Positions 10,054 through 19,102 are shown, numbered from the stretch's first letter. The stretch: DNA of 23,506 nucleotides from a bacterium (GCA_043822925.1 JBDRBF010000052.1:1-23506); one strand, 5' to 3'. Translations and numbers: made by a program. The notes: generated by a model from the sequence alone, not told the origin.

Positions 10054-10127
10054 TTACCCCTTAACGACGGCGCATGGGCGTAGGCGGGCGACCGTTGTGT
10101 GTGACATGCGTCTGACTGCGCCATGAC
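10054..10127 (-). pseudogene. rtcB': Remnant of the rtcB 3' end (direct repeat of 17645-17883 with an internal deletion)
   Basis: 10058-10089 is identical over 32 bp to 17649-17680; 10097-10127 matches 17853-17883 at 27/31. It translates as HGAVRRMSHTTVARLRPCAVVKG* versus RtcB HGAGRRMSRT...VARLRPCAVVKG*. Confidence 0.9.
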
Positions 10128-10184
10128 TATTTTTGTGTGCTGGGTTTTTAGATGTGTGTTACATGTATTTTTAGAATTACTGTA

Positions 10185-12002
10185 TCACAAGCCCCATTTA
10201 TCGAGCCATAATTGACCGGTAAGAATATGCAGAATAGGCCAAAGACTTTCAACCTGGCCGTGTTGTGCTTTTGTTATTTGTTCATCAATCAATTGCGTAT
10301 TTAACATGCCACTGGCGGCAAGCTTTCCATTTAAAATTATATTTCTAATATCGTGAGCGTGATGTGCGCATTGTTTGACCATAGTACCTGTTGTTTGTCC
10401 CTTAATTCTGCGCCAAAGGGATTTTGTTTTTTTTAATTGGCTAATAGCTCGCCTAAAAAATATGCGGTCATAACCATCATTAAATGACTGATAGGTTGGA
10501 ATCTTTAGGCTTAATTCAATAATTGGCTGAGAAAGTAGGGGGTGAGTAATACAGGTACCGGGAGTGGTCCAATTCCGTTCACAGTAGGAAACAGCATGGT
10601 AAATAGATTCGATCTGTGATGCCTTTCCAGGATGTATTTTTCTCAAAGTATTGTTGAGATAAAACTCTTGCTGTTTAAGTTCTTGCACAAAGTTTTTATC
10701 CAGATAATTTTGGTCGTTTTTTTCGGTTGTTTCTTTATGACGTTTTTTGCAATAATAGCTTGCAACAGCTTTAGCATTTTCATGAGCAAGTGATAGCCAT
10801 GGCATACGGTAGATGCCACTAAGTTCTTTCAGTGGCGTTGTAACGCCATTAAATTTATGATCAAGCCAATAATCAGCCAGTGCAAGTTTTGGTGGGGGCG
10901 CGAGAAACACATGATCGCCGCCCTGGCCATTCATAACTTCTGGGCAGTTATTTTGCATTGCGATATCTTGCAATTGTTGGCGTAAATTATAAAACAACAA
11001 AAGCGTGCTTGGTCTGTTCGGGAAAAAGTTTTGGGGAAGTTTATCTAATAATGATGTCGTTTGCCAATCAAGAAAATGCACCTGAGCATTGCATGCGTCT
11101 GCTGTTTCTTGAGCGAATTCAATTTCGTTTGAACTTTGAGTTTTACTGTCAATATAATTGACCGCTATTAACTTTTTATAAACTGGTAAAATATCATGTA
11201 AAAGCAGCATGACGCCAGACGAATCTGTGCCGCCAGAAAGTTCAACGCAGACGCCTGGAGCATCGCCAACCCAAGCTTTGGTGCATGCTTTGAGTGTTGC
11301 AAGTAGCTCTTCTTCTAACTTATTCTCGTCAGATATAAAAGAACTTTGTATAGAAGCGGCATCCCACAATACGTCATGTGTGCATTTGCCTCTGGAATTT
11401 ATACTCAGGCCTATGCCAGGCAAAAGCTCTTCAATCCCGTCAAAAGGCGTTGACGATAATGCATGATTTGTATGGATAATATGTTGCGCAAAATAATTTA
11501 TATTTACTGCAGGCTTGATATCGAGTGCTTTATATAAAAGTATAAGCTCGGTAGAAAAAATTACCCCATCAGGAGTAACATGATAAAAAAGTGTTGATAG
11601 CCCCTGTGGATCACGAACTAATGTTATTGTTTTAGTCGTTTTATTAAAAAGAGTCCCAATATAACGTCCCCAAAAAAGCGTGCTCAAATTTTTAGGGTTA
11701 TTAATACACGCTTGTATGTGATTATTATTTAAATTTATGTGATTAAAATTTACCGGCTCATGATTGTCACGGTTAAAGAGTTTGCCAACCAATATGCCAT
11801 GTATCTCCTGGTCTGCTTGTATGGGTATTATGCGGTCATAATGGTATGCTTCGTCATGCTTATATCCTGCAAAAATTATGCCATTATCTAAAAGCATCGT
11901 TTCCAGTGCGCCATCTGGCGTTTGTTGCAAAGCGATATGAGACAATTTTTTAATGAGATCAGGCGTGCAGTGTGCGCCAAAAGCGCCCAGTAAATATGGC
12001 AT
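10185..12002 (-). CDS. Lasso peptide cyclase (C protein; asparagine synthetase-like macrolactam synthetase)
   Basis: ELSGGTDSS PP-loop, MNGQGGDHVF, RDPQG, HPLLSQPIIEL, DRIFFRRA; lacks the N-terminal catalytic Cys of true AsnB; directly downstream of a lasso B gene and precursor. Confidence 0.92.
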   Translation of the reverse strand: MPYLLGAFGAHCTPDLIKKLSHIALQQTPDGALETMLLDNGIIFAGYKHDEAYHYDRIIPIQADQEIHGILVGKLFNRDNHEPVNFNHINLNNNHIQACINNPKNLSTLFWGRYIGTLFNKTTKTITLVRDPQGLSTLFYHVTPDGVIFSTELILLYKALDIKPAVNINYFAQHIIHTNHALSSTPFDGIEELLPGIGLSINSRGKCTHDVLWDAASIQSSFISDENKLEEELLATLKACTKAWVGDAPGVCVELSGGTDSSGVMLLLHDILPVYKKLIAVNYIDSKTQSSNEIEFAQETADACNAQVHFLDWQTTSLLDKLPQNFFPNRPSTLLLFYNLRQQLQDIAMQNNCPEVMNGQGGDHVFLAPPPKLALADYWLDHKFNGVTTPLKELSGIYRMPWLSLAHENAKAVASYYCKKRHKETTEKNDQNYLDKNFVQELKQQEFYLNNTLRKIHPGKASQIESIYHAVSYCERNWTTPGTCITHPLLSQPIIELSLKIPTYQSFNDGYDRIFFRRAISQLKKTKSLWRRIKGQTTGTMVKQCAHHAHDIRNIILNGKLAASGMLNTQLIDEQITKAQHGQVESLWPILHILTGQLWLDKWGL

Positions 12003-17524: not shown

Positions 17525-17644
17525 GTTTTTTTCATGTTTATTTTTTTGTTTTTTGTTATTAAATTTATGAAATTCGGGCCTGAGCATAGCAGGAGTTTTG
17601 TTCGAATGCTACTTGCTATTTTAAAGAGTGAGTACTTTTTGGCC

Positions 17645-19102
17645 CTAGCCCTTAACGACGGCGCATGGGCGTAGGCGGGCAACAGGTCTGGCAATGCCTG
17701 CTTGCTGAACGACGCTAATAACGTCATCGATATTTTTGTATGCTTGTGGTGCTTCTTCAGCCAGATCTTTTAGCGATTCGACTTGTATTTGTATGCCTGA
17801 TTTATTTAGGCTTTCTTTGAGCTCATAACTATTAATAGATTTTTGGGCAGCAGTGCGTGACATGCGCCTGCCTGCGCCGTGACAGGTCGAGCCAAAAGAT
17901 ATATTCATGCCTTCTTGTGTGCCGACAAGTACATAAGAAGCTGTGCCCATGCTGCCGGGAATAATAACCGGCTGGCCAGTTGCTCTATATTCTTCGACGA
18001 TTTCTGGATGTCCGGGGCCAAACGCGCGCGTTGCCCCTTTGCGGTGCATGATAACCGTTTTTTGTTTGCCATTAATTTGGTGGTTTTCTATTTTTGCAAT
18101 ATTATGTGCGACGTCATATAAAAGCGATAAATTTGCGTCAGTATTGTCTTTGCCGAATACTTCTGCAAAAGCTTGGCGCACGCGCCAGGTGATCATCTGT
18201 CTGTTTGCCCAGGCGTAATTTGCGCCACACGCCATAGCATCGAAATAGTCTTTGCCCTCTGGGCTATTAAATGGCACACAGGTGAGTTCTTTTTCTGGGG
18301 GCGTAATGCCATAATTTTGCATAATTTGGGTCATAATTTTTATATGATCTGTTGCTATTTGGTGCCCCAGGCCGCGCGATCCGGTATGTATAAGCACAAC
18401 TATTTGGTTTTTGTGTAGTCCAAATACACCTGCAGCTTGTTCGTCATATATTTCGTCAATAATATCGACTTCAATAAAATGGTTACCTGACCCGAGTGTG
18501 CCGAGCTGATCGTACCCACGTTCTTTGGCTTGCTTAGAAACTTTATCTGGATCAGCGTTACTCAAACAACCAAAAGATTCTGTGTAGTGCATATCGCTTT
18601 GCTCTCCGTAGCCTTCTTTTATGGGCCAGTTTATACCTGTTCTTAATACAGCATCTAAGTTTTTTGCTGAGAGTTTTAGTGACCCGCCCCTTCCTACTCC
18701 TGACGGTACCCAATTATATAATTTTTGGGCCAGCAATTCTGTCTTATCTTTTATATCGTTAATATTTAAATTTGAGCGCAATAAACGCACGCCGCAATTA
18801 ATATCGTATCCAATGCCACCAGGTGAAATAACGCCGCTCGGGAATTCAGTTGCTGCTACACCGCCAATGGGAAACCCGTAGCCTTCGTGCGCGTCTGGCA
18901 TAGCTTGAGCTGTTCCAATAATTCCAGGTAACATTGTTATGTTGGCAAGTTGTGCGAGTGTTTTGTCAGCAAGAATATCTGTGAGCATTTGTTCTGTTGC
19001 GTATATACGTGCTGGAGCGAGCATGCCCGGAACAGCCCCTATGGGCAACTCCCAAATTACGGGAGAGATTTTTTTGAGCATTTCTTTTGTGATAGTAATC
19101 AT
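17645..19102 (-). CDS. rtcB: RNA-splicing/repair ligase RtcB
   Basis: MPDAHEGYGFPIG, GYDINCG, GTLGSGNHF, HTGSRG, DVAHN, HRKGAT, PGSMG, HGAGR, C-terminal VKG. Confidence 0.96.
   Translation of the reverse strand: MITITKEMLKKISPVIWELPIGAVPGMLAPARIYATEQMLTDILADKTLAQLANITMLPGIIGTAQAMPDAHEGYGFPIGGVAATEFPSGVISPGGIGYDINCGVRLLRSNLNINDIKDKTELLAQKLYNWVPSGVGRGGSLKLSAKNLDAVLRTGINWPIKEGYGEQSDMHYTESFGCLSNADPDKVSKQAKERGYDQLGTLGSGNHFIEVDIIDEIYDEQAAGVFGLHKNQIVVLIHTGSRGLGHQIATDHIKIMTQIMQNYGITPPEKELTCVPFNSPEGKDYFDAMACGANYAWANRQMITWRVRQAFAEVFGKDNTDANLSLLYDVAHNIAKIENHQINGKQKTVIMHRKGATRAFGPGHPEIVEEYRATGQPVIIPGSMGTASYVLVGTQEGMNISFGSTCHGAGRRMSRTAAQKSINSYELKESLNKSGIQIQVESLKDLAEEAPQAYKNIDDVISVVQQAGIARPVARLRPCAVVKG

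What the first reader, a model, noticed from the sequence alone, without database searches (positions are those of the whole stretch)
10054..17883. Lasso operon sits in a ~7.6-kb block flanked by direct repeats of the rtcB 3' end: a candidate island integrated at rtcB
Seen: 32 bp at 10058-10089 (CCCTTAACGACGGCGCATGGGCGTAGGCGGGC) are identical to the last codons of rtcB at 17649-17680, in the same orientation. Between the copies lie lasso C, B, A, a MutS-like ATPase and an ABC exporter. Established: elements integrating into the 3' end of a gene leave an intact gene on one side and a displaced 3' fragment on the other. Inference: the lasso cluster was acquired (or the region rearranged) through a crossover in rtcB, an unusual target. 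No integrase is visible, so this is either RecA-type single-crossover capture of a circle or a decayed element.
Basis: partly seen in the sequence, partly recalled or inferred. Interest (0 to 1): 0.8.

Follow-up and report, generated by a model that had tools for sequence, protein, structure and literature searches.

The report
Lasso gene block inserted behind rtcB
A 7.5-kb block of genes for a lasso peptide sits directly behind the RNA-ligase gene rtcB and is followed by a decayed second copy of that gene's tail, which looks like the scar of an old insertion by recombination and not like a working mobile island.

Summary
The 32-nt repeat (10058-10089 = 17649-17680) occurs only twice in the 1.52-Mb assembly. 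It is part of a 74-nt relic of the rtcB tail (10054-10127). The relic has two blocks: the last 12 codons plus the stop, and the CHGAGRRMSR motif. In frame, 54 codons are missing between them. Exactly five genes lie between the relic and intact rtcB: ABC exporter, MutS-like ATPase, lasso precursor, B and C.

The layout is what a single crossover in the rtcB 3' end would leave. Strong lasso C homologues occur in only 15 of 260 other genomes of the order, and their tree ignores taxonomy. None of 18 related lasso loci is next to rtcB.

Four other loci of this genome carry the same scar: leuS, ssrA, a PhoH/PIN gene and one unnamed gene. So rtcB is not a special target.

Against an active island:
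- There is no recombinase on the contig.
- GC and codon use are ordinary.
- The relic has 9 mismatches in 74 nt.
- No excision joint appeared in four runs.
- No close relative exists to show an empty site.

rtcB itself is away from its usual enolase/archease neighbourhood. Verdict: an old, fixed insertion. Moderate interest.

The parts
10054..10127 (-). Relic of the rtcB 3' end. Block A (10097-10127) corresponds to CHGAGRRMSR. Block B (10054-10099) corresponds to the last 12 codons plus the stop. The 54 codons between them are missing in frame. There is no start codon, and C->S and G->V changes fall in the catalytic motif.
10058..10089 (-). 32-nt exact repeat, downstream copy
17649..17680 (-). 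32-nt exact repeat, copy inside intact rtcB (codons for ARLRPCAVVKG)
17853..17883 (-). Part of rtcB (CHGAGRRMSR) matched 27/31 by block A of the relic
17645..19102 (-). Intact rtcB (485 aa), the only copy in the assembly
15716..17587 (-). ABC exporter (membrane plus ATPase domains), lasso D-type. Relatives' alignments start at residue 22-43, so the true start is probably near 17524 (inference).
13392..15611 (+). MutS-like protein (MutS III plus V domains) with a hydrophobic N-terminus. It belongs to a family with 4 paralogues in this genome.
12912..13085 (-). Lasso precursor, 57 aa: leader ...LGKVSTSTM, predicted core GGPQGNFMEIRGRSRR (Gly1 to Glu9 ring)
12018..12836 (-). Lasso B (transglutaminase-type leader protease, 272 aa)
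10185..12002 (-). Lasso C (asparagine-synthase-type cyclase, 605 aa)
8776..9888 (-). WD40 gene beyond the relic. It is lineage-specific, with no orthologue in 34 family genomes.

Best explanation
The 7.5-kb block (ABC exporter, MutS-like ATPase, lasso precursor, B protease, C cyclase; 10128-17644) was inserted right after the rtcB stop codon by one crossover inside the last ~240 nt of rtcB. This is a Campbell-type insertion-duplication. Such an event leaves a complete rtcB upstream of the insert and a 5'-truncated copy of the rtcB tail downstream of it, which is what is seen.

The tail copy has since decayed: 9 mismatches in 74 aligned nt, 54 codons lost, and catalytic-motif residues changed. 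So the event is old and the block is now a fixed passenger with no recombinase of its own. Recombination between the two 32-nt repeats could still delete it. That would leave an rtcB encoding the same protein, because both copies end ...VVKG-stop.

Functionally, the block makes a lasso peptide (predicted core GGPQGNFMEIRGRSRR, Gly1-Glu9 ring) and exports it.

Shown: the footprint, the gene content, the patchy and incongruent distribution of the module, and the recurrence of the footprint at other genes. Inferred: that a single homologous crossover of a circular or looped intermediate made it, the direction of the event, and its age.
For: 1. Layout: intact rtcB, then a 7,517-nt insert, then a direct 5'-truncated rtcB tail that ends with its own stop codon. 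This is the product expected from single-crossover integration of DNA carrying a 3'-terminal gene fragment (established knowledge, recalled).
2. The repeats delimit exactly the genes that travel together elsewhere. B, C and a >=47%-identical ABC exporter are adjacent in 9 of 18 related lasso loci. A MutS-like gene lies within the locus in 8 of 18. Of the window's genes outside the repeats, three kinds reappear there. The AAA_35 gene reappears in L061. TrxB and HIT reappear in L068. The ABC ATPase gene 5835-6731 gives weak (22-29% identical) hits in 11 of the 18 loci, mostly over the exporter's own ATPase domain.
3. The module is mobile on evolutionary time. Strong lasso C homologues (E <= 1e-96) occur in 15 of 260 other genomes of the order. 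On the lasso C tree, family labels need 11 changes against a shuffled mean of 12.4, and the 4 rows of the window's own family need 4 changes. By contrast, the 10 best rtcB hits include 9 from the window's own family.
4. The same scar occurs at four other loci of this genome, none with a recombinase between the repeats:
   - leuS + LRR gene + leuS tail (139 nt at 94% and 174 nt at 96%, with an internal gap of about 320 nt);
   - PhoH/PIN gene + HEPN/nucleotidyltransferase pair + a 246-nt copy at 97%;
   - ssrA + TacA/GNAT pair + a 134-nt copy at 87%;
   - one unnamed gene + Gp49/antidote pair + a 92-nt copy at 96%.
5. The integrated junction is seen independently. A 271-nt contig of run X5 spans 17427-17697 with 0 differences.
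6. Both copies keep Gly-stop after the core through different codons (GGC TAG and GGG TAA).
Against: - No empty site, excised circle or skipping joint was available to prove insertion (see Tried and rejected).
- GC (0.35-0.42) and codon use (z -0.01 to +0.58 for the four large genes) are typical of the genome. Foreign origin therefore rests on distribution alone.
- The contrast between the perfect 32-nt core and its diverged flanks is only marginal: p about 0.04 by permutation of 9 mismatches over 74 nt. It does not locate a crossover.
- The closest relative of the MutS-like gene (G009, 46%) is not next to lasso genes, and the family is in 230 of 261 genomes. The block is therefore not one uniformly co-inherited unit.
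- rtcB is not in its family-typical place. Enolase is its convergent neighbour in 4 of 12 relatives' loci, and archease lies upstream in 8 of 12. This genome keeps the enolase block on another contig without rtcB and has no archease. The rearrangement history of the locus is thus more complex than one insertion into a native site.
- Of the 16 related lasso loci with usable flanks, none has the window's layout. One (G140) has a gene-tail copy, but it lies upstream of the module.
- In the four small cassettes the repeat ends at a terminator hairpin. The rtcB repeat ends at the stop codon and folds no better than shuffles (z +0.8).
Confidence: 0.55

Rival explanations
1. It is a site-specific integrative island whose integrase gene was lost or acts in trans, in the manner of a cis-mobilizable element. 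On this reading the 32-nt identity is the att core. The rtcB-like sequence beside it is the element's own arm, inherited from earlier stays behind rtcB in related hosts.
For: A perfect 32-nt core has flanks that are about 21% diverged. Both copies preserve Gly-stop through different codons, as an element-borne surrogate gene end would. The ssrA islet of the same genome shows the same pattern: a 47-nt exact core inside a 134-nt, 87% repeat. Its GNAT toxin gene is found in none of 260 other genomes of the order. The genome holds one non-Xer-like tyrosine integrase and one large serine recombinase on contig C32.
Against: No recombinase is on this contig. An arm carrying the CHGAGR block is not needed for site-specific integration. 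The core-versus-flank contrast is weak (p about 0.04). The target genes of the five scars all differ, so each would need its own integrase. No other lasso cluster is at rtcB (0 of 18).
Confidence: 0.2
2. The fragment is the last remnant of a second rtcB copy (a duplicate, or the resident copy replaced when rtcB was relocated). It decayed by deletions, and the lasso genes reached the interval independently.
For: rtcB decays repeatedly in this family. G007 keeps only a 70-codon 3' remnant, G015 is split by 2 TGA, and G022 is truncated at residue 452. rtcB in this genome has left its enolase/archease neighbourhood. The relic is old and carries an internal deletion.
Against: This needs a deletion that ends exactly at the outer edge of the lasso module. 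It also needs a 32/32 identity that kin rtcB genes do not show (18-25/32). The same layout behind the single-copy essential genes leuS and ssrA is hard to explain by paralogue decay. No other rtcB trace exists in the assembly.
Confidence: 0.15
3. The repeat is an assembly artefact or a chance match. For example, a 7.6-kb circle might have been threaded into the chromosome at a shared 32-mer.
For: The genome is a fragmented metagenome assembly (86 contigs). The population is at low depth in the runs examined. I found no independent contig listed across 10054-10184.
Against: The chance match is excluded (E 1.8e-12 and 6e-5; 2 copies genome-wide). An independent run has a contig joining the ABC side to rtcB-specific sequence through the repeat (17427-17697). 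Diverged flanking homology and an in-frame internal deletion are not what mis-joins produce. Four more loci show the same layout.
Confidence: 0.03
4. The 32-nt sequence is kept identical because it works in both places, for example as an RNA 3' structure or a protein-binding site.
For: Zero mismatches in the core against 9 in the 42 aligned positions outside it.
Against: Neither copy folds better than shuffles (z +0.82 and +0.85). The one terminator-like site that the scan of 9700-10400 listed (10357-10369, + strand) lies inside lasso C, away from the fragment. The sequence is ordinary rtcB coding sequence whose nucleotides vary freely in relatives.
Confidence: 0.03

Closest known systems
Integrative islands and prophages that insert into the 3' end of a gene and supply a surrogate gene end (tRNA/tmRNA islands; phage 21 and e14 in icd of E. 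coli). Recalled, no paper read here.
   Same: An intact gene on one side, a displaced 3' fragment in direct orientation on the other, and cargo between them. Both copies preserve the C-terminal residues and a stop.
   Different: There is no integrase in or near the block. The duplicated stretch reaches about 240 nt upstream of the stop, far more than an att core needs. The relic is decayed. There is no compositional signal and no evidence of excision.
Cis-mobilizable elements (CIMEs): att-flanked islands without a recombination module. Recalled.
   Same: Flanking direct repeats and cargo only, with any mobility having to come from elsewhere.
   Different: No cognate integrative element targeting rtcB is known or seen. 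Five different target genes carry the scar in one genome.
Campbell-type insertion-duplication by a single homologous crossover, as with suicide plasmids or circular donor DNA in transformation, and homology-facilitated illegitimate recombination. Recalled.
   Same: The product geometry is identical. The repeat lengths (92 to about 640 nt at the other loci, about 240 nt here) fit homologous rather than site-specific exchange.
   Different: These are known mainly as laboratory events. A natural intermediate (a circle carrying a gene tail plus cargo) has not been observed here.
Proteobacterial-type lasso peptide clusters with A, B, C and an ABC exporter D (microcin J25 type). Recalled.
   Same: A precursor with Thr at -2, Gly1 and an acidic residue at position 8/9, a transglutaminase-type B, an Asn-synthase-type C, and an ABC exporter.
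   Different: A MutS-like membrane ATPase gene is interposed on the other strand. The host is a small-genome lineage that earlier notes of this scan call Dependentiae (not verified here). My two-term full-text search found no paper on lasso peptides in that lineage.

Membership tests
Integrase-type genomic island | Direct repeats (attL/attR) derived from the target gene's 3' end | tested here: met
   32-nt exact repeat plus diverged flanks, with the intact gene retained
Integrase-type genomic island | Integrase or other recombinase gene inside the island | tested here: not met
   The 7,517-nt interval is filled by five genes without recombinase domains. The genome's Phage_integrase and Resolvase hits lie on contigs C23, C31 and C32.
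Integrase-type genomic island | Composition unlike the host genome | tested here: not met
   GC 0.35-0.42, like the flanks. Codon-use z scores are -0.01 to +0.58 against 751 long ORFs of the genome.
Integrase-type genomic island | Empty site in relatives, or an excised form | tested here: inconclusive
   There is no close relative. The metagenome and genome scans were empty. The contigs of 4 runs cannot show absence.
Integrase-type genomic island | Cargo patchily distributed and incongruent with the species tree | tested here: met
   15 of 260 other genomes have a strong lasso C. Family labels are not clustered on its tree.
Campbell-type insertion-duplication | Complete gene, insert, then a 5'-truncated copy of the same gene's 3' end in direct orientation | tested here: met
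Campbell-type insertion-duplication | A circular or looped donor carrying the gene tail and the cargo | not testable with these tools
   This needs raw or long reads, or PCR across the predicted circle junction.
Lasso peptide gene cluster | Precursor with a leader (Thr at -2), an N-terminal Gly/Ala/Ser/Cys, and Asp/Glu at core position 7-9 | tested here: met
   ...STM|GGPQGNFME... The leader LGKVS.(L/S)T resembles those of precursors upstream of B in relatives. The motif rule itself is recalled.
Lasso peptide gene cluster | B (transglutaminase-type protease) and C (Asn-synthase-type cyclase) genes | tested here: met
   Pfam Transglut_core3 at 54 bits and Asn_synthase at 64 bits. The two are adjacent in 17 of 18 related loci.
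RtcB RNA ligase (the fragment) | Full-length protein with an intact Cys-His-Gly-Ala-Gly-Arg motif | tested here: not met
   The fragment covers 24 codons, reads SHGAVR, and has no start. It is a pseudogene relic. The gene at 17645-19102 meets the feature.

The most novel reading that the evidence does not exclude
This lineage spreads cargo cassettes with no recombinase of their own by hitch-hiking on the 3' ends of conserved genes. The cargo includes toxin-antitoxin pairs, an LRR protein and, as the largest case, a 7.5-kb lasso-peptide cluster. Recombination between the flanking gene-tail repeats would pop out a circle that carries one tail copy. A homologous crossover with the same gene in another cell would then re-insert it and recreate the scar. 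Here rtcB, leuS, ssrA and a PhoH/PIN gene would be the docking genes.
Probability: 0.15. Interest if true: 0.7.

Novelty: new member of a known kind. Interest (0 to 1): 0.4.

Why it matters
If the reading holds, it shows how a small-genome, host-dependent bacterium picked up a complete antimicrobial-peptide pathway without any visible mobile-element machinery. It also shows that the same route left scars behind at least four other genes of the same genome. That gives a concrete, testable handle on gene gain in a poorly known lineage: junction PCR or long reads at five defined loci. The predicted lasso peptide (GGPQGNFMEIRGRSRR) is a simple target for heterologous expression. On its own, the rtcB scar is an ordinary, old insertion footprint.

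Tried and rejected
1. Excision or empty site in reads. I laid window 4000-23506 on the contigs of 4 runs (X2-X5, four studies). The 7 joints listed do not include one linking ~10.06 kb to ~17.65 kb. These are short, low-depth contigs that cannot show absence, so this says nothing either way.
2. Metagenome scan for a 25-nt part of the core: 0 matches.
3. Metagenome scan with the WD40 protein: 342 pattern matches, 0 relatives.
4. Scan of species-representative genome contigs with lasso C: 1 irrelevant weak hit, in a Halothiobacillus MAG.
5. Synteny test of the empty site. In 12 relatives' rtcB loci only rtcB is shared with the window, apart from weak hits of the two ABC ATPase genes in L031. The relatives are too distant for this to count against the idea.
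6. A third apparent match (10119-10141 against 17722-17744, 18/23; also favoured by MAFFT). I rejected it as chance: it is AT-rich, overlaps block A, and is out of order.
7. GC3 along rtcB. The tail is GC-rich (0.67), but other stretches reach 0.82, so there is no sign of a foreign 3' end.
8. A hairpin or terminator role for the core: not supported.
9. Flanking repeats around 18 related lasso loci. Exact matches of >=16 nt gave only three 16-17-nt chance-level hits. Sensitive blastn on the 16 loci with usable flanks gave one real hit, in G140. I first suspected it to be precursor paralogues. It turned out to be a copy of the tail of a 340-aa gene with three internal repeats, lying upstream of the module, so it is a different geometry.
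10. The MutS-like gene as an integral, co-inherited module part: weakened, because its nearest homologues are not lasso-linked.
11. The AAA_35 gene as part of the island. Its presence beside the G254 lasso cluster is explained by its high copy number there (12 candidates).
12. The HEPN gene upstream of rtcB in G018 and its homologue on contig C32: an unrelated toxin-antitoxin gene.
13. Literature. 'lasso peptide' + 'Dependentiae' gave 2 papers, of which the 1 listed is unrelated by its title and abstract. 'rtcB' + 'genomic island' + 'integration site' gave 1 paper, on McrBC systems, seen in the listing only. No paper was read.
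Full report
THE OBSERVATION

The 32 nt at 10058-10089 and 17649-17680 are identical and in the same orientation. A search of the whole 1,519,359-base assembly, of which this window is contig C52, allowed up to three mismatches. It found these two copies only, and none for the reversed control. The copy at 17649-17680 encodes ARLRPCAVVKG, the end of a full-length rtcB at 17645-19102 on the minus strand (Pfam RtcB, 582 bits).

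The downstream copy is part of a longer relic at 10054-10127. Block B (10055-10099) matches 17646-17690 at 40/45. Block A (10097-10127) matches 17853-17883 at 27/31. When the two 3.1-kb flanks are compared, blastn gives E 1.8e-12 and 6e-5 for these matches. On the minus strand the relic reads SHGAVRRMSH-TT-VARLRPCAVVKG-stop. It therefore joins the CHGAGRRMSR motif to the last 12 codons, and 162 nt (54 codons, rtcB 17691-17852) are missing in frame. It has no start codon, and two invariant motif residues are changed, so it is a pseudogene fragment.

The nucleotide identity is not imposed by the protein. The same 32 positions in 11 relatives' rtcB tails are 18-25/32 identical.

WHAT LIES BETWEEN THE COPIES

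Five genes fill the 7,517 nt:
- an ABC exporter (15716-17587, minus strand);
- a MutS III/V-domain protein with a hydrophobic N-terminus (13392-15611, plus strand);
- a 57-aa precursor (12912-13085, minus strand);
- a transglutaminase-type B (12018-12836, minus strand);
- an asparagine-synthase-type C (10185-12002, minus strand).

The precursor ends ...LGKVSTSTM|GGPQGNFMEIRGRSRR. Small ORFs upstream of B in relatives carry the same kind of leader (...LGKVS.LTL|G...) and an acidic residue at core position 8. This is therefore a genuine lasso cluster of the A-B-C-plus-exporter type.

IS THE BLOCK FOREIGN?

Composition says nothing. GC is 0.35-0.42 across the block, like its flanks. The codon use of the four large genes lies at z -0.01 to +0.58 of 751 long ORFs of the genome.

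Distribution does speak. Strong lasso C homologues (E <= 1e-96) occur in 15 of 260 other genomes of the order, spread over nine families. On a maximum-likelihood tree of 20 lasso C sequences the family labels are not clustered: 11 changes against a shuffled mean of 12.4, and the four rows of the window's own family need four changes. In contrast, nine of the ten best rtcB hits are in the window's own family.

In 18 related lasso loci fetched with up to 10 kb of flank:
- B is next to C in 17;
- a >=47%-identical ABC exporter is adjacent in 9;
- a MutS-like gene lies within the locus in 8;
- rtcB, or any rtcB fragment, is present in 0.

So the repeats in the window enclose just the genes that recur together elsewhere. 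Three kinds of window genes outside the repeats do reappear in those loci:
- the multi-copy AAA_35 gene, in one locus;
- TrxB and HIT, in another;
- the ABC ATPase gene 5835-6731, as weak (22-29% identical) hits in 11 loci, mostly over the exporter's own ATPase domain.

One caveat applies. The MutS-like family is in 230 of 261 genomes, with four paralogues here, and the nearest homologue of the window's copy (46%, G009) is not beside lasso genes. That gene probably has its own history.

This test cannot be done with what exists.
- No genome of the same genus is held, and the best rtcB is 68% identical.
- Around rtcB in 12 relatives' loci nothing but rtcB is shared with the window, apart from weak hits of the two ABC ATPase genes in L031.
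- The WD40 gene beyond the relic has no orthologue in 34 family genomes.
- Two metagenome scans and one scan of species-representative genomes found nothing useful.

The comparison did show something else. Archease lies upstream of rtcB in 8 of the 12 relatives' loci. In four genera the gene lies tail-to-tail with enolase, or one gene away from it. This genome keeps the conserved UDG-like gene, two further conserved genes, enolase and an MFS gene on contig C65, with neither rtcB nor a trace of it. No archease was found in the 92%-complete assembly. So rtcB has itself moved, and the present locus lies in a zone of lineage-specific and multi-copy genes. But the relatives are far too distant for that to count.

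READS

Near-identical sequence is present at low depth in groundwater and biofilm metagenome runs of four studies, with both the block and the flanks covered. One 271-nt contig of run X5 spans 17427-17697 without a difference. It joins the ABC side to rtcB-specific sequence through the repeat, so the integrated junction next to rtcB is not peculiar to this assembly. I have no independent contig across the other junction.

THE SAME SCAR ELSEWHERE IN THE GENOME

A scan for exact direct repeats of >=26 nt that lie >=600 nt apart gave 62 pairs. Four of them, when examined, have the geometry of the rtcB case:

| Contig | Intact gene | Insert and cargo | Tail copy |
|---|---|---|---|
| C11 | leuS | 1.15 kb, LRR protein gene | 139 nt at 94% plus 174 nt at 96%, with an internal gap of about 320 nt |
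| C26 | PhoH/PIN gene | 0.82 kb, HEPN plus nucleotidyltransferase pair | 246 nt at 97% |
| C35 | ssrA | 0.86 kb, TacA plus GNAT pair | 134 nt at 87%, with a 47-nt exact core |
| C63 | unnamed gene with its terminator | 0.82 kb, Gp49-like plus antidote pair | 92 nt at 96% |

None of the inserts encodes a recombinase. The GNAT gene is found in none of the 260 other genomes of the order.

This recurrence is the strongest argument that the rtcB relic marks an insertion and not the decay of a paralogue, because leuS and ssrA are single-copy essential genes. It also means that rtcB is not a special target.

There are two differences. In the four small cassettes the repeat ends at a terminator hairpin. 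The rtcB repeat ends at the stop codon and has no fold better than shuffles (z +0.8). The rtcB relic is also more diverged.

MECHANISM

A complete gene, an insert, and a 5'-truncated tail of the same gene in direct orientation is the product of a single crossover between the gene and DNA that carries its 3' part plus cargo (Campbell-type insertion-duplication; recalled knowledge). The repeat lengths fit homologous exchange better than an att core: about 240 nt here before the internal loss, and 92 to about 640 nt at the other loci.

A site-specific origin, with the integrase lost or acting in trans, remains possible. The perfect 32-nt core among diverged flanks, and the synonymous Gly-stop endings (GGC TAG against GGG TAA), would suit it. 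However, permutation of the 9 mismatches over 74 aligned positions gives a run of >=32 in 4% of trials, so this contrast is weak. The genome's only candidate mobile-element recombinases lie on contig C32.

The relic's decay, the ordinary composition, and the presence of the block in four studies' samples point to an old, fixed insertion. Recombination between the two 32-nt repeats could still remove the block and would leave an rtcB with an unchanged protein sequence (inference).

COMPARISON WITH KNOWN SYSTEMS, AND NOVELTY

The geometry matches islands and prophages that insert into a gene's 3' end and supply a surrogate end. But the defining integrase is absent (tested, not met) and no excision could be shown. 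It resembles cis-mobilizable elements and laboratory insertion-duplication. The cargo is a conventional lasso cluster. I file it as a new member of a known kind: a decayed, recombinase-less insertion scar.

Two things are mildly new. The first is a complete lasso pathway as cargo in a lineage that earlier notes call Dependentiae (I did not verify this). My two-term search found no paper on lasso peptides in that lineage (listing only). The second is the recurrence of the scar behind five different genes in one small genome.

The boldest reading still open is an integrase-free cassette traffic that docks on conserved gene tails. I rate it at about 0.15.

Supplementary files of papers were not consulted, and no paper text was read.

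Noticed in passing
Own genome, other contigs: L078 (C11:1-5300), L077 (C26:8001-11500), L076 (C35:6321-9818), L079 (C63:5001-8400): Four more loci have the layout 'intact gene, short cargo insert, direct copy of the gene's 3' end'. They are leuS + LRR protein, PhoH/PIN gene + HEPN/nucleotidyltransferase pair, ssrA + TacA/GNAT pair, and an unnamed gene + Gp49/antidote pair. The repeats are 92 to about 640 nt at 87-97% identity, no insert has a recombinase, and each repeat ends at a terminator hairpin.
   Followed up: partly
window 6583-8241 (-): This AAA_35-domain gene belongs to a family found in only 30 of 261 genomes of the order. The family is often in many copies (up to 17 candidates per genome). 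Copies are 74-77% identical across different families, and several carry internal stops or are fragments. That behaviour suggests a selfish or mobile gene. A second copy in this genome (C3:1464-3017) is flanked by a 57-nt palindromic repeat.
   Followed up: partly
window 13392-15611 (+): This MutS III/V-domain protein has a signal-like hydrophobic N-terminus. The family is present in 230 of 261 genomes of the order, with 4 paralogues here. A member lies within 8 of 18 related lasso loci, more than its copy number predicts, but the nearest homologues of this copy are not lasso-linked.
   Followed up: partly
window 17645-19102; L080 (C65:17001-28500); relatives L023, L026, L030, L032: rtcB is not where relatives have it. 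Archease lies upstream in 8 of 12 relatives' loci, and enolase is the convergent neighbour in 4. This genome keeps the enolase block without rtcB and has no archease. rtcB is decaying in kin: G007 keeps only 70 codons of the tail, G015 is split by 2 TGA, and G022 is truncated at residue 452.
   Followed up: yes
window 19200-22600: A low-GC stretch (0.26-0.35) holds three ORFs without Pfam matches. Two of them (19308-20234 and 21032-22576) share an identical 30-nt 5' end (20204-20233 = 22546-22575).
   Followed up: no
L058 (G140:C7) 6880-7000 and 1010-2032: In another family's lasso locus, a ~125-nt, ~80% copy of the tail (stop included) of a 340-aa internally repeated gene lies upstream of the B-C-ABC module. 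The intact gene lies downstream. The repeat is of a similar kind, but the order is the reverse of the window's.
   Followed up: partly
L061 (G254:C1) 7213-10711: The lasso C gene appears interrupted. Residues 1-76 and 74-605 of the query match 1.7 kb apart, and three AAA_35 genes are interleaved with the exporter nearby.
   Followed up: no
L054, L056, L059, L068: Relatives carry 2-4 tandem precursor genes upstream of B, with conserved leaders and varied cores. Strong lasso C homologues are present in 15 of 260 other genomes of the order.
   Followed up: partly
Own genome C32:20917-26703: The only non-Xer-like tyrosine integrase (379 aa) and a 498-aa serine recombinase of the assembly lie 3 kb apart, next to HEPN/nucleotidyltransferase pairs. 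This is possibly a mobile element.
   Followed up: no
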